Origin: an uncultured Gammaproteobacteria bacterium
Lineage (GTDB): Bacteria; Patescibacteriota; Microgenomatia; UBA10105; UBA927
Assembly (NCBI GenBank): GCA_964394685.1
Contig: CAYMYO010000002.1
Span: 34,148-98,147, forward strand
Direction: 5' to 3'
DNA length: 64,000 nucleotides
The position numbers were made by a program, and so were the translations under genes. Positions 6,552 through 63,395 of this stretch are shown piece by piece; position 1 is the first letter of the stretch, and each line of letters starts with the position of its first letter. Below the pieces are notes generated by a model. The model saw only the letters and a program-made list of their open reading frames with translations, was not told the origin of the DNA and searched no databases.

Positions 6552-6623
6552 GCGCCTGTAGCTCACCGGTAGAGCACCACTCTTATAAAGTGGGGGTACC
6601 TGGCTCGACACCAGGCAGGCGCA
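6552..6623 (+). tRNA. tRNA-Ile with anticodon UAU (reads AUA); no encoded CCA
   Basis: Hand-folded cloverleaf: acceptor GCGCCTG/CAGGCGC (7 bp), D arm GCTC-ACCGGTA-GAGC, anticodon stem CCACT/AGTGG with loop CTTATAA (U33, anticodon TAT at 6584-6586, A37), 5-nt variable loop, T arm CCTGG-CTCGACA-CCAGG, discriminator A. Confidence 0.65.
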
Positions 6624-6673
6624 CAAAAATAAAATAGATTAGATTACCGTATCTAACAAAGTAAAATAATACT

Positions 6674-8334: not shown

Positions 8335-8889
8335 ATGGAACAGGTCATACTCGTTGATGAGGAAAATAATCAAATCGGTATTGCTGATAAAGAAACCGTG
8401 CACACAAAAAATACTCCGCTTCATCGTGCGTTCTCGTTGTTTCTTTTTAATTCCAAAAAACAACTTCTTGTAACACAACGCGCATTAAATAAGAAAACAT
8501 TTCCGGGAGTGTGGACTAATAGCGTGTGCGGACATGTGTCTCTGGGCGAAGCCGCGTTTGACGCGGTGAAACGAAGATTAAGTGATGAGTTACATGTTGT
8601 TGCTACGGATATAAAAGAAGTTTCTCCGTATCGCTACCGGTTTGCAGATGTAAACGGTGTTGTTGAAAATGAAATCTGTCCTATTTTTATCGGATTTACT
8701 AACGAAGATCCAAAACCAAGTAAGAGTGAAGTAGAAGCATGGAAATGGGTTGGTTGGAGCGAATTTTTGAAAACAGTTAAAGAACATCCCGGAACCTATT
8801 CACCGTGGAGCGAAGAAGAAGCGGTTATACTGAACAATTGTCATCCTGAACTCGTTTCAGGATCCCAGCCGCTTTCAGATGGATGCTGA
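8335..8889 (+). CDS. idi: isopentenyl-diphosphate delta-isomerase, type 1 (Nudix)
   Basis: HRAFSLFLFN...LLVTQRALNKKTFPGVWTNSVCGH matches the IDI-1 signature; the last ~18 aa (NNCHPELVSGSQPLSDGC) and the stop are encoded by the repeat element at 8838-8908. Confidence 0.75.
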   Translation: MEQVILVDEENNQIGIADKETVHTKNTPLHRAFSLFLFNSKKQLLVTQRALNKKTFPGVWTNSVCGHVSLGEAAFDAVKRRLSDELHVVATDIKEVSPYRYRFADVNGVVENEICPIFIGFTNEDPKPSKSEVEAWKWVGWSEFLKTVKEHPGTYSPWSEEEAVILNNCHPELVSGSQPLSDGC

Positions 8890-8908
8890 AATAAATTCAG
8901 CATGACAA
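8838..8908. mobile_element. 70-bp twin-hairpin TIR element (family 1), copy 1, between convergent idi and tsaD
   Basis: TTGTCAT-[ATCCTGAA-ctcgt-TTCAGGAT]-cccagccgctttcagatgg-[ATGCTGAA-ataaa-TTCAGCAT]-GACAA; terminal inverted repeats TTGTCAT/ATGACAA. Confidence 0.6.
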
Positions 8909-8915
8909 ACGGCTT

Positions 8916-9971
8916 TCATACTTCAACGGATAAATCCGGAACTGCTTCGATAGTGTGCCAGTTAACAGGAGTTCCACGGAAGAATGCATAGCTTCCAATA
9001 TATGCGGCGTTATCCGTGCAGAGCGCGACGGGAGGGCAATGGAAATTAAAAGGTAATTTCTGAAACTTTTTACGAAGTCTTAGATTTGCAGCAACACCGC
9101 CGCCAATTAAAATCGATGAAGCGTTATGCAATTCAGCTGCTTTTATTGTTTTTGCTACCAATACATCAGTAATTGCTTCTTGGACTTCATACGCAAATTC
9201 ACTTTGCAATACTTTTTCTGATTTGGATCCTGAAACAAGTTCAGGATGACAAGCATGCCATGTTCTCATGATTGCAGTTTTGAGTCCTGAAAACGAAAAA
9301 TTGAGTGTATCGTCATGAAGGAGTGGGCGGGGTAATTGTATTTTGTATTTAGTATTTTGTATTTTGTATAACGAGGCAGATTCTTGGATTGCGAGACCTC
9401 CTCGGGAACCAAATCCCAAAAGCCGGGCAGTTTTGTCAAACGCCTCTCCAGCTGCATCATCAATAGTTCCTCCGAGCCATTTCAATTCTTTAACACTATT
9501 CATGAGAAATAGTTCTGTGTGTCCACCTGAGACAACAAGACCGATTGCTGGAAATGCAATTGGACAGTCCCTCGACTTCGCTCGGGACGAATTTTCATTC
9601 GAAGACGAAAGAAAATTCGCATACAAATGAGCAAGAACATGATTAACTGGAATAAGAGGTTTTTTGGTCACATATGCAATTGTTTTAGCAGTTTCAACAC
9701 CAATAAGAAGTGATCCGATGAGTCCCGGACCGATGGTAACTGCAATTGCGTCAATTGAATCATACATGAGATGAGCTTCTTCCAACGCTTCTTGAATCGT
9801 CGGGAGAATACATTTTAATTGTTCCCGCGATGCTACTTCCGGTACAATCCCGCCATATTTTTCATGCATGGCAGAAGATGATGCTATGACATTACTTAGA
9901 ATTGTTGTTCCGTCTTTTATAACAGCAGAAGCTGTTTCATCACAGGATGATTCAATTGCGAGTATGGTCAT
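8916..9971 (-). CDS. tsaD: tRNA N6-adenosine threonylcarbamoyltransferase TsaD (Kae1/YgjD family) with three in-frame repeat-derived insertions
   Basis: MTILAIESSCDETASAV, VSGGHTEL and FSFSGLKT motifs; extra loops SSSNENSSRAKSRDC, KIQNTKYKIQ and ACHPELVSGSKSEKV are encoded by repeat sequences. Confidence 0.8.
   Translation of the reverse strand: MTILAIESSCDETASAVIKDGTTILSNVIASSSAMHEKYGGIVPEVASREQLKCILPTIQEALEEAHLMYDSIDAIAVTIGPGLIGSLLIGVETAKTIAYVTKKPLIPVNHVLAHLYANFLSSSNENSSRAKSRDCPIAFPAIGLVVSGGHTELFLMNSVKELKWLGGTIDDAAGEAFDKTARLLGFGSRGGLAIQESASLYKIQNTKYKIQLPRPLLHDDTLNFSFSGLKTAIMRTWHACHPELVSGSKSEKVLQSEFAYEVQEAITDVLVAKTIKAAELHNASSILIGGGVAANLRLRKKFQKLPFNFHCPPVALCTDNAAYIGSYAFFRGTPVNWHTIEAVPDLSVEV
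9225..9252. repeat. half copy of the family-1 element (hairpin A plus ATGACAA terminus) inside tsaD
   Basis: GGATCCTGAAacaagTTCAGGATGACAA; translated in-frame on the minus strand as CHPELVSGS. Confidence 0.55.
9338..9369. repeat. GTATTTT heptamer tandem repeat (about 4.5 units) inside tsaD
   Basis: gtattttgtatttagtattttgtattttgtat; encodes KIQNTKYKIQ on the minus strand; same array at 38289-38327. Confidence 0.6.
9566..9601. repeat. hairpin repeat family 4 (TCCCGAGCGRAGTCGAGGGA, R = a/g) inside tsaD
   Basis: The reverse complement of gtccctcgacttcgctcgggac is near-identical to the intergenic atcccgagcggagtcgagggatt at 17498-17520; followed by the palindrome cgaattttcattcg. Confidence 0.5.
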
Positions 9972-28017: not shown

Positions 28018-28088
28018 TTGTCATGCTGAATTTATTTCAGCATCTATTTAAAAACTAACGGGATCCCGAAACGAGTTCGGGATGACAA
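28018..28088. mobile_element. 70-bp twin-hairpin TIR element (family 1), copy 2, inverted orientation, exactly between the metG stop and the tatD start
   Basis: TTGTCAT-[GCTGAA-tttat-TTCAGC]ATC-tatttaaaaactaacg-[GGATCCCGAA-acgag-TTCGGGAT]-GACAA. Confidence 0.6.
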
Positions 28089-36629: not shown

Positions 36630-37574
36630 TTAATTCTTGTCATGCTGAACTCGTTTCAGCATCTGTCTGAAAACAGCTGGGATCCCGAAACAAGTTCGGG
36701 ATGACAAAATAGCTGAAATAGGGTAATAGAGTGAAGCTCCTCCAAAACCCTCTTTAAATTTCGTAAATCCTTTCCATTCGAAAAATTGCTTTGGCTTTCG
36801 TTCATCCCATACACCAATAAAGTCAAATACGGTACACTTTCGCTTTTTTCCAATTTTAAGCGCATGCCATATAAGAAGTGTCGGCGCAAATAGCCTTTTT
36901 CCTTCATGAGTTGCTCCAGCAATCCAATAAAACGCAGTGTTATTCCAAAATAGTAACAATATGCCGGCAACGACGCGATCAGTATTGGTTTTAGCAAGAA
37001 GAATCGTCGCGTGTTTTGGATAGAATAATTTCCAAAGACGGTCAATGCCATGCGTGGTAATGCCACCAAACATTCCCGCGCCCTTGGATTTAATAGCTAT
37101 TAAATCGTTAATATCATGAGACTCTACAATCGTAAGGTTATTTTTTTCCGCTTTCCGAACAGCCCTGCGTTTAGCAGATGTAAATTTGGAAAATAGTTCT
37201 TTTGTACTTCCTGATAGGTCAATAACAATAGTTTTCGTTGGAATAAATGGGGAAGTCATGATGTGAAAAAACTTCGAAAGAGATGAAAGATATTTATTAA
37301 ATTCTTCTTGCGATACATCTTCTTTCGGTTCAACACTTAGTTGAGTTACGCGGAGTTTTTTTAGTGTCATAACCATTTTTGGGAGATAGGGAAGATGTTC
37401 AGGTCGTTGAAGCTTTGCAAGAGTTCCAATGAGCGGAATGCGGCGGTAAAAAATAGCAGTGCCATCAATAGTCGCTACGTTCCAATGCAATGCTTTAATA
37501 TACGCTTGATAAAGAGAGGATTGTTGCAGTTCCATAATTTTTCTTGTCATCCCGAATTTATTTCGGGATCCCAT
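36630..37574 (-). CDS. FemABX-family peptidyl/aminoacyl transferase (peptidoglycan bridge formation), paralog 1
   Basis: GATHEGKRLFAPTLLIWHALKIGKKRKCTVFDFIGVW...WKGFTKFKEGFGG is FemABX/GNAT-like; the first 13 codons (MGSRNKFGMTRKI, start from the element's ATGACAA terminus) and the last 24 codons lie inside family-1 elements; the native start is probably MELQQ at 37535. Confidence 0.6.
   Translation of the reverse strand: MGSRNKFGMTRKIMELQQSSLYQAYIKALHWNVATIDGTAIFYRRIPLIGTLAKLQRPEHLPYLPKMVMTLKKLRVTQLSVEPKEDVSQEEFNKYLSSLSKFFHIMTSPFIPTKTIVIDLSGSTKELFSKFTSAKRRAVRKAEKNNLTIVESHDINDLIAIKSKGAGMFGGITTHGIDRLWKLFYPKHATILLAKTNTDRVVAGILLLFWNNTAFYWIAGATHEGKRLFAPTLLIWHALKIGKKRKCTVFDFIGVWDERKPKQFFEWKGFTKFKEGFGGASLYYPISAILSSRTCFGIPAVFRQMLKRVQHDKN
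36638..36707. mobile_element. 70-bp twin-hairpin TIR element (family 1), copy 3; translated as the C-terminal 24 aa and stop of fem paralog 1
   Basis: TTGTCAT-[GCTGAA-ctcgt-TTCAGC]-atctgtctgaaaacagctg-[GGATCCCGAA-acaag-TTCGGGAT]-GACAA; the minus-strand frame reads SSRTCFGIPAVFRQMLKRVQHDKN*. Confidence 0.6.
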
Positions 37575-37614
37575 CCGTTTTCAGATGGATGCTGAAACAA
37601 GTTCAGCATGACAA
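37545..37614. mobile_element. 70-bp twin-hairpin TIR element (family 1), copy 4, between the two fem paralogs
   Basis: TTGTCAT-[CCCGAA-tttat-TTCGGG]-atcccatccgttttcagatgg-[ATGCTGAA-acaag-TTCAGCAT]-GACAA; an extra partial hairpin-B arm (ttatttcagcatc) at 37626-37638 provides the KMLK* end of paralog 2. Confidence 0.6.
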
Positions 37615-37622
37615 TACACAAG

Positions 37623-38570
37623 TTATTTCAGCATCTTTAATATTCCCCATCTTATGGAATCAGTAATACAGTAAATACGATATAAGAAAGGCTTGAGAAC
37701 AAGATCATAAGATCCGACAAATTCAATAAGTTTTGGAGAAAAGCCCGCTTTAAACCTGTGGAATCCATACCACGGATCTTTTGGGTCTGGTCCGCCAGCT
37801 GGCGGAGGACCAATTGCTCCCCACAGATCAAATGCTTGAAGTCCTTTGGACTTTCCCCATTTTATTAATTCCCATAGTAACAGGTTTGGCGCCATAACTT
37901 CACGATGTTCCCTTAAAGATGCTCCGTATGGATAGTACATAACACCTTCGTGAATAAATATAACCCATGCGGCAACTATTATATTGTTATATTTGGCTGT
38001 CCACAGAGTTGCAATTCCAGCCTTGTGCATAATGTTCCACATTGTTCGTGTGTATGTTTCGTTGTGTGCATAAAATCCTTGTCTGCTTGTTGTTTCGTAA
38101 GAAAGCTTCATATAGGTTTCAAATGCATTCTCGCTATTATCTTCTTGGATTTTTACATTATATTTTTGGGCTATTTTTATGTTGTATCTTGTTTTTGGAT
38201 GCATGGCTTTCAGAAGGTCTTCCTCAGATTTTGTCAGATCAATCACAAACGTATATTTGGTAAATAGAGGATGATGACTGGGGATAAAGTATTTTGTATT
38301 TTGTATTTTGTATTTTGTATTTTGTATGACATTTGGCTCTATTTGTATAAATATTGCATGTTTTTGTTTTCCTAATAGTATTAATTCTTCTATCATCTTT
38401 TTTGTTGGGTTGGGGCCTTTGGGAAAAAAGCCAATAGTGAATGGAGTGTAAGGGATGCGGTGAAAAGAAATATACCAAGCATAGAGCTTCACAACATCGA
38501 CTCCCATTGCTTTTCTAAATTCTGCCCACGCTTTTGTTTGAAGTGGATGAGTCATAGTGATATTATACAA
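37623..38570 (-). CDS. FemABX-family peptidyl/aminoacyl transferase, paralog 2, with in-frame heptamer-repeat and GC-palindrome insertions
   Basis: Fem-like core (YAWYISFH..., MAPNLLLWELIKWGKSKGLQAFDLWG, FKAGFSPK); KYKIQNTKYKIQNTKY is encoded by (GTATTTT)n and PPAGGPDP by CCGCCAGCTGGCGG. Confidence 0.6.
   Translation of the reverse strand: MYNITMTHPLQTKAWAEFRKAMGVDVVKLYAWYISFHRIPYTPFTIGFFPKGPNPTKKMIEELILLGKQKHAIFIQIEPNVIQNTKYKIQNTKYFIPSHHPLFTKYTFVIDLTKSEEDLLKAMHPKTRYNIKIAQKYNVKIQEDNSENAFETYMKLSYETTSRQGFYAHNETYTRTMWNIMHKAGIATLWTAKYNNIIVAAWVIFIHEGVMYYPYGASLREHREVMAPNLLLWELIKWGKSKGLQAFDLWGAIGPPPAGGPDPKDPWYGFHRFKAGFSPKLIEFVGSYDLVLKPFLYRIYCITDSIRWGILKMLK
37792..37805. repeat. GC palindrome type A (CCGCCAGCTGGCGG) inside fem paralog 2
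   Basis: Perfect 14-bp palindrome flanked by ggt...aggacc; translated as PPAGG. Confidence 0.5.
38289..38327. repeat. GTATTTT heptamer tandem repeat (5.5 units) inside fem paralog 2
   Basis: (gtatttt)x5 + gtat; a similar flank ggggataaag...gtatgac compares with ggggtaattg...gtataac at the tsaD copy. Confidence 0.6.
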
Positions 38571-60471: not shown

Positions 60472-61539
60472 TTGTGTTCATGCTATTATAGAGGTATGTC
60501 TTTCCTGTCTGATCGATTGTCTACGTTACGAAAAAATCTAACTGATAAGCATATTCCACCAGAGCTCGATTTGCGGGTGAAAAGCTACTTTGAAGAAATT
60601 GAACGGTTGCAACAGGACATTGCAGCTCAGGTGCATATTGAACAACTTTTTGACTACATTGACTGGATTGTGAATCTTCCATGGAACGAGCGGACGCAAG
60701 ATGCAATCGATTTGACCAAAGCAAAAGAAATGCTTGATCATAATCATTTCGGTATGCAATCAGTGAAAGACAAGATTTTGGAATATTTAGCAGTATTAAA
60801 ATTAACACAAGACAAAAATATGCTTGCCCGGCGTGCCCCCATTCTTTGTCTTATTGGCTTGGTCGGGACCGGGAAAACAACCTTAGCAAAATCCATTGCC
60901 GATGCAATGGGACGAAAGTTCATCCGCGTTGCGTTCGGAGGATTATCAGACGCACTGGATTTAAGAGGTCAATCGCGGGTGCGTCCTGATGCGGAAATCG
61001 GACTCATTCTCAAAGGTCTTCGCTATGCAGGAAGCAAAAATCCGGTGATGCTTCTTGATGAAGTCGACCGCGTAGCTGAACATGCACGAGGCGATATCAT
61101 GGGAGTATTAATTGAGCTATTGGATCCGGAACAAAACCAAGCGTTTACCGATCATTATCTGGATTATCCGTTTGATCTTTCAGAAGTATTGTTTGTCGCA
61201 ACAGCCAACAACACCGCAAATATCTCAACAGCGGTACTGGACAGATTGGAAGTTATCCAAATGCCGTCGTATTCAGATACGGAAAAAATGACGATAGCCA
61301 AAGAGTATGTACTGCCGGAACTGTTACGCGCATCAGGGTTAACAAAAGAGAATCTGACCATTGATGATGGTATCTGGCCGAAACTCATCCGTCCTCTTGG
61401 GTACGACGCTGGAATAAGAAGCATCGAACGAACAATTAATGATGTGTGCCGTAAAGTGGCACGGATGATTGTCGAAGGAAAAGGAACAACATTCCATATT
61501 ACTGAAAGCAACATTAAAGAGTTTGTAGAAAGTTATTAA
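60472..61539 (+). CDS. Lon-type AAA+ ATPase module only (no N-terminal LON domain and no protease domain)
   Basis: Closely matches the Lon central region: LPWNERTQD...LDHNHFGMQSVKDKILEYLAV, Walker A LIGLVGTGKTTLAKSIA, MLLDEVD (Walker B), ELLDPEQNQAFTDHYL, ATANN, sensor-2 GIRSIER; ends at 355 aa where Lon would continue into the S-K protease domain. Confidence 0.7.
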   Translation: MCSCYYRGMSFLSDRLSTLRKNLTDKHIPPELDLRVKSYFEEIERLQQDIAAQVHIEQLFDYIDWIVNLPWNERTQDAIDLTKAKEMLDHNHFGMQSVKDKILEYLAVLKLTQDKNMLARRAPILCLIGLVGTGKTTLAKSIADAMGRKFIRVAFGGLSDALDLRGQSRVRPDAEIGLILKGLRYAGSKNPVMLLDEVDRVAEHARGDIMGVLIELLDPEQNQAFTDHYLDYPFDLSEVLFVATANNTANISTAVLDRLEVIQMPSYSDTEKMTIAKEYVLPELLRASGLTKENLTIDDGIWPKLIRPLGYDAGIRSIERTINDVCRKVARMIVEGKGTTFHITESNIKEFVESY

Positions 61540-61548
61540 TCTCGTTTT

Positions 61549-61618
61549 TGTCATGCTGAATTCATTTCAGCATCTATCTGAAATCGGCTGGGATCCCGAA
61601 ACAAGTTCGGGATGACAA
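61549..61618. mobile_element. 70-bp twin-hairpin TIR element (family 1), copy 5, flanked by a 16-bp perfect direct repeat
   Basis: TTGTCAT-[GCTGAA-ttcat-TTCAGC]-atctatctgaaatcggctg-[GGATCCCGAA-acaag-TTCGGGAT]-GACAA; GTAGAAAGTTATTAAT at 61525-61540 and again at 61626-61641. Confidence 0.65.
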
Positions 61619-61643
61619 CGGAAAGGTAGAAAGTTATTAATGT

Positions 61644-63395
61644 ATGAAAAAATTTTTTCATTTTAAACAAAAAACACAAAAAAAAGTCTTTCAAGGCTCT
61701 TCTTTTCATGGGCAAATAACCGGCAAACAGTCAATTCGTATTGTTCCTATCGGAGGCTCCGGTAACGTGACGAAAAACATGTTTGCATATGAGCTTCGGT
61801 ATGACGGACTCGTTCGTGACATTCTTCTTGTTGACTGCGGCATCGGATTTCCTGATGCTGACATGTATGGAGTAGATCTGGTTATTCCCGATACCAGGTA
61901 TTTAATGGACAAAAAACAATATATCCGCGGACTGGTATTTACCCATGGGCACGATGATCACATAGGAGCAATTCCTTACATCTATCCAAAACTCGGGAAC
62001 ATCCCCATGTTTGCTCCTCCACTTGCTGCTGCATTTGCCAATGTAAAACTCAAAGAAGCAAAATTGCATGTGCGGGTGAAACCCATGCAATTTTCCGACA
62101 CCATTACCCTCGGACCATTCAAAATATCATTTATTAGAATGACGCATTCTGTACCTGACACATCACATCTTGTTATTGAAACGCCCATTGGTATTTTTTA
62201 CCACGGCAGTGATTTCAAATTTGATTTCGATCCGCTTGACGGGAAAAAATCAGAAATAGAGAAAATCAATGCTGTTGGGAAGCGGGGAGTTCTATGCATG
62301 CTGACCGATTGTTTGGGAAGCGAGCGGACAGGATTTACTCCGTCAGAGCAAAAAATCAGAGATGCGATTGAAAAGGAACTAGCAATGTGTCCAGGAAAAT
62401 TTCTATTCACCACGCAATCGAGCAACATTTCCCGTATCCAACTGGCTATTGATATCGCTTTAAAAAATAATAGAAAAATTGCATTTTTTGGAAGAAGTGT
62501 TAATAAGAATGTTGAAGAAGCAGTCAATCTTGGATACATGAAATTTCCCCGCGACATGATTGTGAGAGACCGCGATTTGAAAAAAATGCATCCGTCAAAA
62601 ATGTTTCTCATTGTAGCCGGTGCCCAGGGACAACCGGAATCCGCTCTTACTCGAATGGCAAATGACAATCACATGTATGTGACGATTGCCGAAGGGGATA
62701 CGGTGATGTATAGCGCAGACCCGATTCCCGGTAACGAAAACAGTATGAATACCGTTATCGATCAAATTTATCGGACTGGAGCGCGCGTTTCATATACCAA
62801 TATCACGGAAGATTTACATGTGTCCGGGCACGGAAGCCAAGGGGATCAAATGCTTCTTCTTTCCGCAGTTGGTCCGCAGTATATTTTCCCAGTCGGAGGA
62901 ACGTATCGGCATATGATGAATTACCGGACTATTGCCATGGAATGCGGATACAAAAAATCCCAGATTCTCATGCCGGAAGAAGGGGATATACTGGAGTTTA
63001 AAATTGGTCTTGCTCCTAAAATAGCTCAGCATATCACTCTTGAAAATATCATGGTTGATGGACTGGGAGTAGGGGACGTGGGAAGTGTCGTGCTACGGGA
63101 TAGGCAAACCATTGCCAATGAAGGAATCGTTGTTGTGGTTGTTCCTGTTGAAAAATCAACCGGACGGGTAACCAGTGAGCCTGATATTATTTCAAGGGGA
63201 TTTGTTTATATCAAAGAATCCGGAGAGCTTCTGGCACGAGCAAAAAAAGTGGTAAACGAATCTCTTCGGGTGAGGCATGGACATACCATGGACTGGCGCT
63301 TCATGCGCGAAATGATCGAAGATAACCTGCAAGGATTTTTGAAAAAAGAAACCGGCCGCCAACCTCTCATAGTGCCGGTCATATTGGAAGTGTAA
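61644..63395 (+). CDS. rnj: ribonuclease J (metallo-beta-lactamase/beta-CASP family)
   Basis: FTHGHDDHIGAIPY (HxHxDH), beta-CASP and C-terminal domains. Confidence 0.85.
   Translation: MKKFFHFKQKTQKKVFQGSSFHGQITGKQSIRIVPIGGSGNVTKNMFAYELRYDGLVRDILLVDCGIGFPDADMYGVDLVIPDTRYLMDKKQYIRGLVFTHGHDDHIGAIPYIYPKLGNIPMFAPPLAAAFANVKLKEAKLHVRVKPMQFSDTITLGPFKISFIRMTHSVPDTSHLVIETPIGIFYHGSDFKFDFDPLDGKKSEIEKINAVGKRGVLCMLTDCLGSERTGFTPSEQKIRDAIEKELAMCPGKFLFTTQSSNISRIQLAIDIALKNNRKIAFFGRSVNKNVEEAVNLGYMKFPRDMIVRDRDLKKMHPSKMFLIVAGAQGQPESALTRMANDNHMYVTIAEGDTVMYSADPIPGNENSMNTVIDQIYRTGARVSYTNITEDLHVSGHGSQGDQMLLLSAVGPQYIFPVGGTYRHMMNYRTIAMECGYKKSQILMPEEGDILEFKIGLAPKIAQHITLENIMVDGLGVGDVGSVVLRDRQTIANEGIVVVVVPVEKSTGRVTSEPDIISRGFVYIKESGELLARAKKVVNESLRVRHGHTMDWRFMREMIEDNLQGFLKKETGRQPLIVPVILEV

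What the first reader, a model, noticed from the sequence alone, without database searches (positions are those of the whole stretch)
61525..61641. Perfect 16-bp direct repeat (GTAGAAAGTTATTAAT) flanks the element between the lon-like gene and rnj
The 16 bp containing the last codons and stop of the Lon-AAA gene (VESY*) occur immediately 5' of the element (61525-61540) and again 3' of it (61626-61641), directly in front of the rnj ATG. This looks like a target-site duplication created on insertion and argues that the element is, or recently was, mobile. The copy at 8838-8908 shows a decayed version of the same pattern (cggttatactgaacaa versus cggctttcatacttcaac). The duplication includes the native stop, so the Lon gene was not truncated by the insertion.
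Basis: seen in the sequence. Interest (0 to 1): 0.8.

Follow-up and report, generated by a model that had tools for sequence, protein, structure and literature searches.

The report
Hairpin-repeat insertion with 16-bp duplication
A 71-bp pair of hairpin repeats of a known, widespread bacterial family (CGTC-type REP / Ssn-related motif) was inserted between two formerly abutting genes and duplicated 16 bp of the junction; related genomes still carry the empty site, so the element moved recently, but other copies show that the duplication has no fixed length.

Summary
GTAGAAAGTTATTAAT occurs exactly twice in the window (61525-61540 and 61626-61641), on either side of a 71-bp two-hairpin element plus 7 nt of non-conserved filler on each side.

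More than 20 related Microgenomates/Gottesmanbacteria-like contigs carry the empty site. There the 16-mer is single-copy and the lon stop overlaps or nearly touches the rnj ATG (...GTAGAAAGTTATTAATGATG / ...TTATTAAGTATGATG). The repeat is therefore an insertion-associated duplication, and the element was recently mobile.

It is not a fixed-length transposase footprint:
- The five insertions in the window have duplications of 16, 7-10, about 9 (imperfect), 0 and 0 nt.
- One relative (L132) has a 71/71-identical element at the same site with no duplication.
- Another relative (L001 type) has the element inverted, with a 14-16-bp duplication.
- About 50 further dimers from other phyla have no flanking repeats.

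The hairpin unit fits the known CGTC-tagged REP family (Di Nocera 2013), also described as NTS/SRM repeats bound by the GIY-YIG ssDNA nuclease Ssn (Chenal 2025). The element is an 'HH heterodimer' of that family. No ssn gene lies in the window.

The most likely mechanism is imprecise, repair- or replication-based integration. How these repeats spread is still an open question, and these junctions bear on it.

The parts
60496..61539 (+). Lon-like AAA+ ATPase gene with no protease domain. The native C-terminus ...EFVESY* lies inside the left repeat.
   Evidence: NCBIfam lon/AAA hits. Homologues all end ..VESY. The ORF from the TTG at 60472 is longer than the homologues; the M at 60496 matches their starts.
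61525..61540 (+). Left copy of the 16-bp direct repeat (codons V-E-S-Y-stop plus T). This is the original position of the sequence.
61541..61547 (.). Left filler ctcgttt. It is not conserved among copies and is absent from empty sites.
61548..61574 (+). REP unit A: T + TGTC tag + 8-bp stem ATGCTGAA / 5-nt loop TTCAT / TTCAGCAT + C.
   Evidence: It matches the CGTC-REP definition in PMC3733652.
61575..61591 (.). 17-nt spacer TATCTGAAATCGGCTGG, largely conserved in four of the five window copies (copy 2 diverges).
61592..61618 (-). REP unit B, inverted with its tag outward: TGTC + ATCCCGAA / CTTGT / TTCGGGAT + C on the minus strand. Its stem differs from unit A, making the pair a heterodimer.
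61619..61625 (.). Right filler cggaaag. The L001-type allele has cgagagg at the same position.
61626..61641 (+). Right copy of the 16-bp repeat. It now serves as the non-coding leader of rnj and restores the ancestral sequence upstream of the rnj start.
61644..63395 (+). RNase J gene (rnj).
   Evidence: NCBIfam TIGR00649 score above the curated cut-off
8822..8922 (-). Copy 1 (dimer at 8838-8908) inserted where the convergent idi and tsaD genes overlapped by 38 nt. It is flanked by a decayed 7-10-nt duplication: CGGTTATACT at 8822-8831 and CGGCTTTCATACT at 8910-8922. The tsaD end is preserved; the idi C-terminus is replaced by an element-encoded tail.
28018..28088 (+). Copy 2, inserted between the metG stop and the tatD start (TAATG overlap in L134). 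There are 1 nt and 10 nt of filler and no duplication.
36637..36707 (+). Copy 3, inserted where the convergent pcrA-like and femAB-like genes overlapped by 23 nt. There is a possible imperfect ~9-nt duplication (TGGAAGTGA / CTGAAATAG). The femAB-like C-terminus is replaced by an element-encoded tail.
37544..37614 (-). Copy 4, inserted between two abutting femAB-like genes (TAA|ATG in relatives). There are 8 nt of filler on each side and no duplication.
9225..9252 (-). A single REP unit inserted in frame inside tsaD. It encodes ..ACHPELVSGS.., which is absent from all seven aligned homologues.

Best explanation
The 16-bp repeat is an insertion-associated duplication of the lon-stop/rnj-start junction. 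In the ancestor the two genes abutted (...GTAGAAAGTTATTAA[T]G[T]ATG...).

What was inserted. A non-autonomous hairpin-repeat dimer was inserted together with about 7 nt of unrelated filler on each side. It consists of two inverted CGTC/TGTC-tagged REP units with tags outward, an 'HH heterodimer' of the family also called NTS/SRM. Sixteen base pairs of the target ended up on both sides.

Consequences. The left copy keeps lon's last codons and stop. The right copy keeps the original leader in front of rnj.

Mechanism. The footprint is not a fixed transposase stagger. The same family in the same genome inserts with 0 to 16 nt of duplication and 1-10 nt of filler. The integration step therefore looks imprecise, for example break repair or replication template-switching of a hairpin-containing single-stranded intermediate. 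In this gene-dense genome only junctions that keep at least one gene end intact survive (inferred). The likely trans-acting factor is an Ssn-type single-domain GIY-YIG ssDNA nuclease. It binds such units and cuts a few nucleotides outside the tag (shown in vitro for homologues from Neisseria spp. and Wolbachia).

What is shown and what is inferred. Shown: the insertion, the duplication, variable footprints and family membership. Inferred: the integration mechanism, the involvement of Ssn, and selection on the rnj leader.
For: Exact 16-mer repeat, found only at these two places.

Empty sites:
- The 16-mer is single-copy in L007-L011, L138-L145 and further relatives.
- Two lineages have the site occupied with a duplication: the window (16 bp) and L001-L006/L137 (14-16 bp, element inverted).
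- All other intergenic copies in the window are also lineage-specific insertions with empty sites in relatives, and their footprints are 0, 0, about 9 and 7-10 nt.

Family membership:
- TGTC tag, 8-bp stem starting with AT, 5-nt loop, C after the palindrome, HH heterodimer with a largely conserved spacer, and an intragenic unit.
- All 144 of 144 units found in more than 120 genomes of many phyla keep both variable stem positions complementary.
- Units of exactly this type flank single-domain GIY-YIG genes on both sides, tags outward, in 7 of 7 complete cases. This is the SRM-ssn-SRM architecture described in PMC11893778.

Flank behaviour: L132 and the window have 71/71 identical elements, although the neighbouring coding DNA is only about 82-89% identical. 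Their immediate flanks differ completely. The change is concentrated in the zones just outside the tags, where Ssn is reported to cut.
Against: - No ssn/GIY-YIG gene lies in the 64-kb window, and the rest of the genome could not be read.
- The published degenerate SRM search sequence does not match these A/T-rich stems.
- The reported Neisseria cut site appears to be about 3 nt upstream of the tag (my reading of the oligo lengths). The insert boundaries here are 7-8 nt out.
- Ssn cuts only one strand per unit, so tags-outward dimers are not excised as one strand by two cuts.
- L132 shows that the same element can sit at this site without a duplication, so the duplication could have arisen after the insertion.
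- The lon tree is unresolved (bootstrap below 50%), so one insertion versus several cannot be decided.
- The origin of the filler nucleotides is unknown.
Confidence: 0.62

Rival explanations
1. Classical MITE. A DDE-type transposase recognises the terminal inverted repeats (TTGTCAT...ATGACAA), makes a 16-bp staggered cut in the target, and gap repair creates a true 16-bp target-site duplication.
For: The element has inverted ends and is flanked by a perfect direct repeat. Empty sites exist. A second lineage has a 14-16-bp duplication at the same site.
Against: - The repeats do not abut the inverted ends; there are 7 nt of non-conserved filler on each side.
- Other insertions of the same element in the same genome have 0, 0, about 9 and 7-10 nt duplications.
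- L132 has no duplication.
- About 50 further dimers elsewhere show only chance-level flanking repeats.
- The 'TIRs' are self-folding REP units of a family that occurs singly, in arrays and in frame inside genes.
- No transposase-bearing parent was seen. The only gene found between such units is a 95-aa GIY-YIG nuclease.
Confidence: 0.07
2. Secondary duplication. The dimer first inserted cleanly between TAA and ATG, as in L132. Later, in the ancestor of the window and L001-type lineages, a local repair event next to the right-hand tag copied 16 nt of the lon 3' end to the front of rnj. The copy was kept because it restores the native rnj leader.
For: - L132 carries the identical element at the same site without the repeat.
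- The window and L132 are the most similar pair in the rnj 5' region.
- The flanks just outside the tags turn over much faster than the element or the genes.
- The L001 type shares its left filler with L132 (acacat[t/c]) and its right filler plus repeat with the window. This fits stepwise change of a single ancestral insertion.
Against: - It needs a second, very specific event that copies exactly the sequence that originally preceded rnj to exactly that place. A duplication at insertion gives this automatically.
- Copy 1, and probably copy 3, also have target duplications at independent sites, so duplication at insertion does occur in this family.
- The branching order is unresolved.
Confidence: 0.2
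3. Independent insertions into a hot spot. The lon-rnj junction was hit separately in the window, L132 and L001-type lineages, in either orientation and with different outcomes (16 bp, 0 bp, 14-16 bp).
For: - The orientation differs between the L001 type and the window/L132, and the L001 spacer is unrelated.
- The fillers differ.
- The window and L132 elements are 71/71 identical, far more alike than vertical neutral descent predicts (0.88^71 is about 1e-4).
Against: - Shared fillers by position (L001 left resembles L132 left; L001 right resembles window right) argue for common descent of the site.
- The three occupied lineages share loss of a 16-21-aa Lon segment that is present in the close relatives aligned in A1 that have empty sites.
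- No feature explaining a hot spot was identified.
Confidence: 0.1
4. The repeated 16-mer is a functional motif (for example a protein- or ribosome-binding site) that occurs twice for regulatory reasons, or a chance repeat, unrelated to the insertion.
For: The right copy sits where a translation-initiation region for rnj is expected.
Against: - None of 100 shuffles gave two matches.
- The motif occurs nowhere else in 64 kb.
- All empty-site relatives have it once, as lon's last codons.
- It is duplicated only where the element is present.
Confidence: 0.01

Closest known systems
CGTC-tagged REPs and their HH dimers (Di Nocera, De Gregorio & Rocco 2013, BMC Genomics 14:522; includes Neisseria dRS3 and Rickettsia RPE-4/RPE-6)
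   Same: - Unpaired (C/T)GTC tag, 8-bp stem beginning with AT, 5-nt loop, and a short tail starting with C (CCA in copies 1 and 4).
- Mostly dimers with tags outside ('HH'), heterodimeric stems and a largely conserved spacer.
- Located between unidirectional or convergent ORFs, with occasional in-frame intragenic units.
- No adjacent transposase gene.
   Different: - The host is a Microgenomates/Gottesmanbacteria-like CPR bacterium, which is not among the five phyla listed in that paper.
- The stems are A/T-rich (GCTGAA, CCYGAA).
- That paper reports no empty-site comparisons, footprints or target duplications. It left open whether new copies still form.
NTS/SRM repeats and the Ssn family of GIY-YIG ssDNA nucleases (Chenal et al. 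2025, Nat Commun 16:2388)
   Same: - Same unit frame: (C/T)GTCAT-stem-loop-stem-ATC.
- The C after the palindrome is nearly invariant (140 of 144 here). It is the most important base for SsnA binding.
- In other genomes, units of exactly the window's type flank about 95-aa single-domain GIY-YIG genes on both sides (7 of 7).
   Different: - The published degenerate SRM pattern does not match the window's units (tested).
- No ssn gene lies in the window.
- The paper shows binding and cleavage of ssDNA and an effect on transformation, not transposition. Mobility is only hypothesised there.
REPIN-RAYT systems (Bertels & Rainey 2011; Nunvar 2010; Ton-Hoang 2012)
   Same: - Works like it in outline. 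The mobile unit is a doublet of inverted REP hairpins with a short spacer.
- It is non-autonomous, with a single-copy domesticated nuclease gene itself flanked by the repeats.
- It is intergenic and spreads within the lineage.
   Different: - The tag is GTAG rather than CGTC/TGTC.
- The enzyme is a Y1 HUH transposase rather than a GIY-YIG nuclease.
- To my knowledge no target duplication is associated with REPIN-type elements; this was not checked in the papers read here.
Bacterial MITEs such as Neisseria Correia elements, or IS-derived MITEs
   Same: Short, non-coding, with inverted ends; insertion polymorphism between relatives; can be co-transcribed or add coding sequence.
   Different: MITEs have a fixed-length duplication that abuts the inverted ends, and a related transposase-bearing IS. 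Here the duplication length varies from 0 to 16 nt, filler separates it from the ends, and no such IS was found.

Membership tests
CGTC-tagged REP (Di Nocera 2013) | Unpaired terminal tag CGTC, with TGTC/CCTC variants allowed | tested here: met
   All 11 bona fide units in the window start with TGTC. [quoted passage not shown]
CGTC-tagged REP (Di Nocera 2013) | Stem of 8-9 bp whose first two pairs are A-T / T-A; loop of 4-5 nt | tested here: met
   Stem and loop are ATGCTGAA/TTCAT/TTCAGCAT and ATCCCGAA/CTTGT/TTCGGGAT. In 144 of 144 related units both variable stem positions are complementary.
CGTC-tagged REP (Di Nocera 2013) | Short unpaired 3' tail (consensus CCA) | tested here: met
   Tails in the window are CTA, CCA, CTG and CCC. 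140 of 144 units start the tail with C.
CGTC-tagged REP (Di Nocera 2013) | Predominantly HH dimers (tags outside), often heterodimers, with conserved spacers | tested here: met
   The window has 5 dimers, all with tags outward. Stem types A (GCTGAA) and B (CCYGAA) are always paired. The 17-nt spacer is largely conserved in four of the five copies; copy 2 diverges.
CGTC-tagged REP (Di Nocera 2013) | Located between unidirectional or convergent ORFs; occasional intragenic in-frame units; no adjacent transposase | tested here: met
   Copies 2, 4 and 5 lie between unidirectional ORFs; copies 1 and 3 lie between convergent ORFs. One in-frame unit lies in tsaD.
SRM / Ssn system (Chenal 2025) | Matches the published degenerate search sequence HGTCWYN(0-2)YYVSBRHN(0-5)WNVSBRGN(0-2)RNCYNB | tested here: not met
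   None of the window's units match. The regex requires G/C-rich stem positions, for example B where these units have A. The pattern was derived from 29 genomes of 4 phyla.
SRM / Ssn system (Chenal 2025) | Units flank a single-domain, roughly 95-aa GIY-YIG (cd10448) gene on both sides | tested here: inconclusive
   Met for units of this exact sequence type in other genomes: 7 of 7 complete genes, tags outward, 10-77 nt away. Pfam gives GIY-YIG only; the nearest solved structures are UPF0213 proteins. No such gene lies in this window and the rest of the genome could not be read. The cd10448 assignment itself was not testable because CDD was not available.
SRM / Ssn system (Chenal 2025) | Cytosine immediately 3' of the palindrome, and three conserved bases 5' of it (GTC) | tested here: met
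   All window units have GTC-AT...AT-C. 140 of 144 related units have the C. Its importance is stated.
SRM / Ssn system (Chenal 2025) | Bound as ssDNA and cleaved a few nucleotides upstream of the tag by the cognate Ssn | not testable with these tools
   This needs biochemistry. The only indirect hint is that insert boundaries and flank turnover lie 7-8 nt outside each tag.
MITE (IS-derived) | Fixed-length target-site duplication directly abutting the terminal inverted repeats | tested here: not met
   With empty-site controls, duplications are 16, 7-10, about 9, 0 and 0 nt, with filler of 1-10 nt between the duplication and the ends. L132 has none. About 50 further dimers elsewhere are at chance level.
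MITE (IS-derived) | A related autonomous IS with the same ends and a transposase | tested here: not met
   None in the window. In more than 120 loci from other genomes, the only gene found bracketed by the units was GIY-YIG; this was a tblastn search with one GIY-YIG query, not a screen of the genes between unit pairs.
REPIN-RAYT | GTAG-tagged REP units and a RAYT (Y1 HUH) gene flanked by them | tested here: not met
   The tag is TGTC, not GTAG. No RAYT was found next to the units. Di Nocera also reports that CGTC repeats are not associated with tyrosine transposases.

The most novel reading that the evidence does not exclude
These junctions may be the first natural 'footprints' of how Ssn-associated (CGTC/SRM) hairpin dimers move. 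Three features stand out:
- The inserted unit ends about 7-8 nt outside each outward-facing tag, on the side where Ssn cuts.
- Integration is imprecise, with 0-16 nt of target duplication.
- At an orthologous site, the 71-bp core stays 100% identical between species whose genes differ by 11-18%, while the few nucleotides outside the tags are completely rewritten.

This would mean that Ssn-type nucleases act in vivo as domesticated mobilisers and local mutators of their repeats, a GIY-YIG analogue of the RAYT/REPIN system. It would also mean they are active in streamlined CPR genomes, where they remodel gene ends by adding C-terminal tails and making in-frame insertions.
Probability: 0.25. Interest if true: 0.7.

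Novelty: new member of a known kind. Interest (0 to 1): 0.5.

Why it matters
How REP-type repeats spread is still unknown. Di Nocera 2013 states that CGTC repeats 'apparently lack a dedicated transposase' and asks whether new copies still form. Chenal 2025 only hypothesises that SRM-ssn-SRM is IS-like. Corneloup 2021 says the same of GTAG REPs.

This window, together with its relatives, gives five dated insertion events, each with a matching empty site, in one lineage. These events show three things:
- Dimers of this family are still being inserted.
- The footprint is variable, 0-16 bp plus filler, rather than a fixed TSD.
- In a genome with overlapping genes, the insertions rewrite gene ends. 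Two C-terminal tails were replaced and one in-frame insertion was made, and the 16-bp duplication preserved both lon and the rnj leader.

The published SRM search pattern also misses these A/T-rich variants, so the family's distribution, including in CPR bacteria, is probably underestimated.

Tried and rejected
- Rfam at gathering threshold found only a tRNA in the window, so no curated RNA family covers the element.
- The terminator/promoter scan at 61300-61800 found no terminator-like site. The hairpins lack a T-run, so an intrinsic terminator was rejected.
- The exact-protein look-up for the window's Lon ORF and for P0001 found nothing, probably because the called start codon differs.
- A literature search for the peptide string MLKQVQHD, which the hairpin encodes, gave no hits. 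The first GIY-YIG/hairpin search returned only organellar papers, and the UPF0213/COG2827/YhbQ search was uninformative.
- An NJ tree of lon DNA, built to decide one versus several insertions, was star-like with bootstraps below 50%.
- I looked for extended homology between the fillers and the target (a longer, decayed duplication), for reverse-complementarity between left and right fillers, and for filler matches to the flanks of other window copies. Nothing convincing emerged from inspecting.
- A 'CTCG' match between the window's left filler and the reverse complement of L001's right filler hinted at inversion including the flanks. It could not be reconciled with the other flank and may be chance.
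- The published SRM regex gave only two unrelated hits in the window.
Full report
**Observation.** The 16-mer GTAGAAAGTTATTAAT is present at 61525-61540 and 61626-61641 and nowhere else in the window, even with two mismatches. None of 100 dinucleotide-preserving shuffles gave two matches. The bases next to each copy differ, so the repeat is exactly 16 bp. The left copy holds the last four codons and the stop of a Lon-like AAA+ gene. All 12 aligned homologues end in ..E(S/T/M)Y*, so it is the native C-terminus. The right copy ends 2 nt before the ATG of rnj (RNase J).

**What lies between the repeats.** The interval is 85 nt: 7 nt (ctcgttt), a 71-bp element (61548-61618), and 7 nt (cggaaag). 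The element consists of two inverted hairpin units separated by a 17-nt spacer. The units are TTGTCAT-GCTGAA-TTCAT-TTCAGC-ATC and, on the other strand, TTGTCAT-CCCGAA-CTTGT-TTCGGG-ATC. The window holds five such dimers, at 8838-8908 (-), 28018-28088 (+), 36637-36707 (+), 37544-37614 (-) and 61548-61618 (+). It also holds one single unit at 9225-9252. The 7-nt flanks are not conserved among copies.

**Empty sites at lon-rnj.** The organism is a Microgenomates/Gottesmanbacteria-like CPR bacterium, judging from the source names on the protein hits. Contigs carrying Lon homologues show the following:
- L007-L010 and L143-L145 read ..GAGTTTGTAGAAAGTTATTAATGATGAAACC.
- L011 reads ..TTTATAGAAAGTTATTAAGTATGATGAAAC.
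- About 15 more distant relatives also have lon's stop overlapping or within a few nucleotides of the next start, with the 16-mer region present once.

The element is therefore an insertion, and the second 16-mer exists only where the element is present.

**Other occupied alleles.**
- L001-L006 and L137 come from seven independent assemblies. They read TTATTAA-acacatt-[dimer in the opposite orientation, with an unrelated spacer]-cgagagg-GATAGAAAGTTATTAAT-TATGATG. That is a 14-bp exact repeat, or 15-16 bp if one allows the A/G polymorphism also seen in L011.
- L132 reads TTATTAA-acacatc-[dimer 71/71 identical to the window's, same orientation, sharing its private variants]-caaaattt-ATGAAACAA, with no duplication.

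The flanks form a mosaic. The L001 type shares its left filler with L132, and shares its right filler plus the repeat with the window. This suggests one ancestral insertion whose flanks, and in L001 its orientation, later changed. All lineages are about 80-85% identical in lon and rnj DNA, and the lon tree is unresolved. The three occupied lineages do share loss of a 16-21-aa Lon segment that is present in the close relatives aligned in A1 that have empty sites. Near the junction, the window and L132 differ by about 11-13%. The 71/71 identity of the element is therefore unexpected under neutral descent (0.88^71 is about 1e-4), while the few nucleotides just outside the tags are entirely different.

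**Is a 16-bp duplication typical of the element?** It is not. I obtained empty sites for every other intergenic copy:
- Copy 4: relatives read ..AAATAA|ATGGAA; the window reads ..AAATAA-cttgtgta-[dimer]-gaaaaatt-ATGGAA. There is 8 nt of filler on each side and no duplication.
- Copy 2: the relative L134 has a TAATG overlap; the window has TAA-a-[dimer]-ggaaaaaagt-ATG. There is no duplication.
- Copy 3: in relatives the convergent pcrA-like and femAB-like genes overlap by 23 nt. In the window there may be an imperfect ~9-nt duplication (TGGAAGTGA / CTGAAATAG). The femAB-like protein has lost its last residues and reads through the element (..YYPISAILSSRTCFGIPAVFRQMLKRVQHDKN*).
- Copy 1: in relatives idi and tsaD overlap convergently by 38 nt, with a single ..GCGGTTATACTTCAACGG... 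The window has CGGTTATACT-gaacaa-[dimer]-a-CGGCTTTCATACTTCAACGG. It preserves the tsaD end, while idi acquires an element-encoded tail.

Among 65 two-hairpin dimers tested, only the eight lon-rnj alleles (window, L001-L006) and members of a tandem array (L098) had flanking repeats longer than mismatched-flank controls; the remaining 50 or so, mostly from other phyla, did not. In about 238 kb of close relatives there are no units at all apart from the lon-rnj alleles. The expansion is thus specific to the window's lineage.

**What the element is.** A scan of one genome per species with the unit pattern reached its 120-locus limit. The hits came from Proteobacteria (including a Rickettsia endosymbiont), Nitrospirae, Spirochaetes, Melainabacteria, Bacteroidota, Ignavibacteria and many CPR groups. 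They occur as singles, as dimers of the same architecture, and as arrays. In 144 of 144 hits the two stem positions left free by the pattern are complementary, giving four stem types. In 140 of 144 a C follows the palindrome.

This matches the CGTC-tagged REP family of Di Nocera et al. 2013. That family has these features:
- a tag of CGTC, often TGTC;
- an 8-9-bp stem starting with AT, a 4-5-nt loop and a short tail;
- predominantly 'HH' dimers with tags outside, often heterodimers with conserved spacers;
- location between unidirectional or convergent ORFs, with occasional intragenic units;
- 'not associated to transposase genes'.

The same units are the NTS/SRM repeats of Chenal et al. 2025. 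They are bound as ssDNA by Ssn, a roughly 95-aa single-domain GIY-YIG nuclease whose gene is flanked by the repeats. [quoted passage not shown]

I confirmed independently that units of exactly the window's type bracket small GIY-YIG genes in 7 of 7 complete cases, with tags outward and 10-77 nt away. The 71-bp dimer therefore looks like the gene-less miniature of SRM-ssn-SRM. Two caveats apply. The published degenerate SRM pattern does not match these A/T-rich stems, and no GIY-YIG gene lies in the window.

**Mechanism.**
- Shown: repeated lineage-specific insertion of the dimer; about 7-8 nt (range 1-10) of unrelated sequence on each side; target duplications from 0 to 16 nt; rapid turnover confined to the zones just outside the tags.
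- Inferred: integration is imprecise, for example break repair or replication template-switching involving a hairpin-forming single strand, rather than a fixed-stagger transposase reaction.
- Inferred: in this gene-dense genome, with overlapping stops and starts, only junctions that keep at least one gene end intact survive.
- Inferred: the 16-bp duplication persists because it keeps lon's stop on one side and the original rnj leader on the other.
- Inferred: an Ssn-type nuclease encoded elsewhere in the genome is the trans factor.

A weakness of the Ssn link is that each unit directs a cut on only one strand. By my reading of the oligo lengths, the Neisseria cut site is about 3 nt from the tag, not 7-8 nt. 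The hairpins are not followed by a T-run, so they are not intrinsic terminators.

**Rivals.**
- A classical MITE with a true 16-bp TSD is unlikely, given the variable footprints, the filler and the lack of a parent IS.
- A secondary duplication after a clean L132-like insertion remains possible (about 0.2). It requires a very specific second event, and independent sites (copy 1, and probably copy 3) show that duplication at insertion does occur.
- Independent hits on a hot spot would explain the opposite orientation and the 71/71 identity. They do not explain the position-specific sharing of fillers.
- A functional or chance repeat is excluded by the empty sites.

**Novelty and verdict.** The element family and its GIY-YIG partner are already described. 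New here are the host clade (CPR/Microgenomates), an A/T-rich stem variant missed by the published search pattern, and five insertions with matched empty sites that document current mobility and a variable footprint. The finding is real and correctly described. Its interpretation as an insertion scar is right. Its reading as a diagnostic fixed-length TSD is not. Interest is moderate: it bears on an open question (how CGTC/SRM repeats spread), but the evidence is comparative and limited to a few loci.

Noticed in passing
window 9225-9254 (minus strand, inside tsaD 8916-9971): A single REP unit (TTGTCATCCTGAACTTGTTTCAGGATCC) is inserted in frame in tsaD and encodes ..ACHPELVSGS... It is absent from all seven aligned homologues. 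It resembles the intragenic CGTC REPs / Rickettsia RPEs described in the literature.
   Followed up: yes
window 9561-9608 (minus strand, inside tsaD): A second lineage-specific in-frame insertion in tsaD (SSSNENSSRAKSRDCP). Its DNA (..GAATTTTCTTTCGTCTTCGAATGAAAATTCGTCCCGAGCGAAGTCGAGGGAC..) folds into two small hairpins and contains CGTC motifs. It may be another small palindromic repeat type.
   Followed up: partly
window 9336-9374 (tsaD) and 38283-38327 (femAB-like gene 37623-38570): Tandem heptamer GTATTTT/AAAATAC runs lie inside two unrelated coding regions. They are read in frame as ..YKIQNTKYKIQ.. and ..IQNTKYKIQNTKY... One TsaD homologue (P0243) has the same insert. This is another intragenic repeat that seems to spread between genes.
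   Followed up: partly
window 8335-8889 (idi) and 36630-37574 (femAB-like): Two proteins have had their native C-termini replaced by tails translated from the inserted dimer (..NNCHPELVSGSQPLSDGC* and ..AILSSRTCFGIPAVFRQMLKRVQHDKN*). The mechanical ORF start of the femAB-like gene at 37574 lies inside copy 4; the real start is probably the ATG at 37533.
   Followed up: yes
loci L012-L131 (one genome per species, many phyla): The hairpin unit is conserved across phyla almost to the base, including the loop (CTTGT in 60 of 144, TTTAT in 25 of 144). The stem switches among four fully compensated variants. Such cross-phylum sequence conservation suggests horizontal spread or a very conserved protein partner.
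   Followed up: partly
L090, L094, L098, L116 (upstream of full units); L030, L097, L098, L122 (arrays): Half-units (TTGTCATCCTGAAC) lie 7-11 nt upstream of complete units. There are also tandem arrays with short constant spacers, for example an 82-bp period in L030. These look like nested or partial duplications generated at the tag-proximal flank.
   Followed up: no
L133 5432-5460 (metG-tatD spacer in a relative): This relative has a 29-nt spacer (TTGTCAATTTGTTAATTGGTTACTTTGTT) where the window has copy 2 and L134 has a TAATG overlap. It begins like a unit and could be the remnant of a decayed or partly deleted element.
   Followed up: no
window 60496-61539 and alignment A1: The Lon-like protein is AAA+ only, with no protease domain. 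It shows a 16-21-aa indel (GIEEKELKNGETGLVHGMLA) with slightly different boundaries in the window, P0001/P0002 and P0005. The gene sits in a pnp-lon-rnj cluster of RNA-decay genes.
   Followed up: partly
window 6552-6624: tRNA-Ile with anticodon TAT (UAU). This is an uncommon way to read AUA in bacteria. It is the only tRNA in the 64 kb.
   Followed up: no
window units versus the SRM regex of PMC11893778: The published degenerate SRM search sequence fails on these A/T-rich stems. Genome surveys based on it probably undercount the family, notably in low-GC and CPR genomes.
   Followed up: yes
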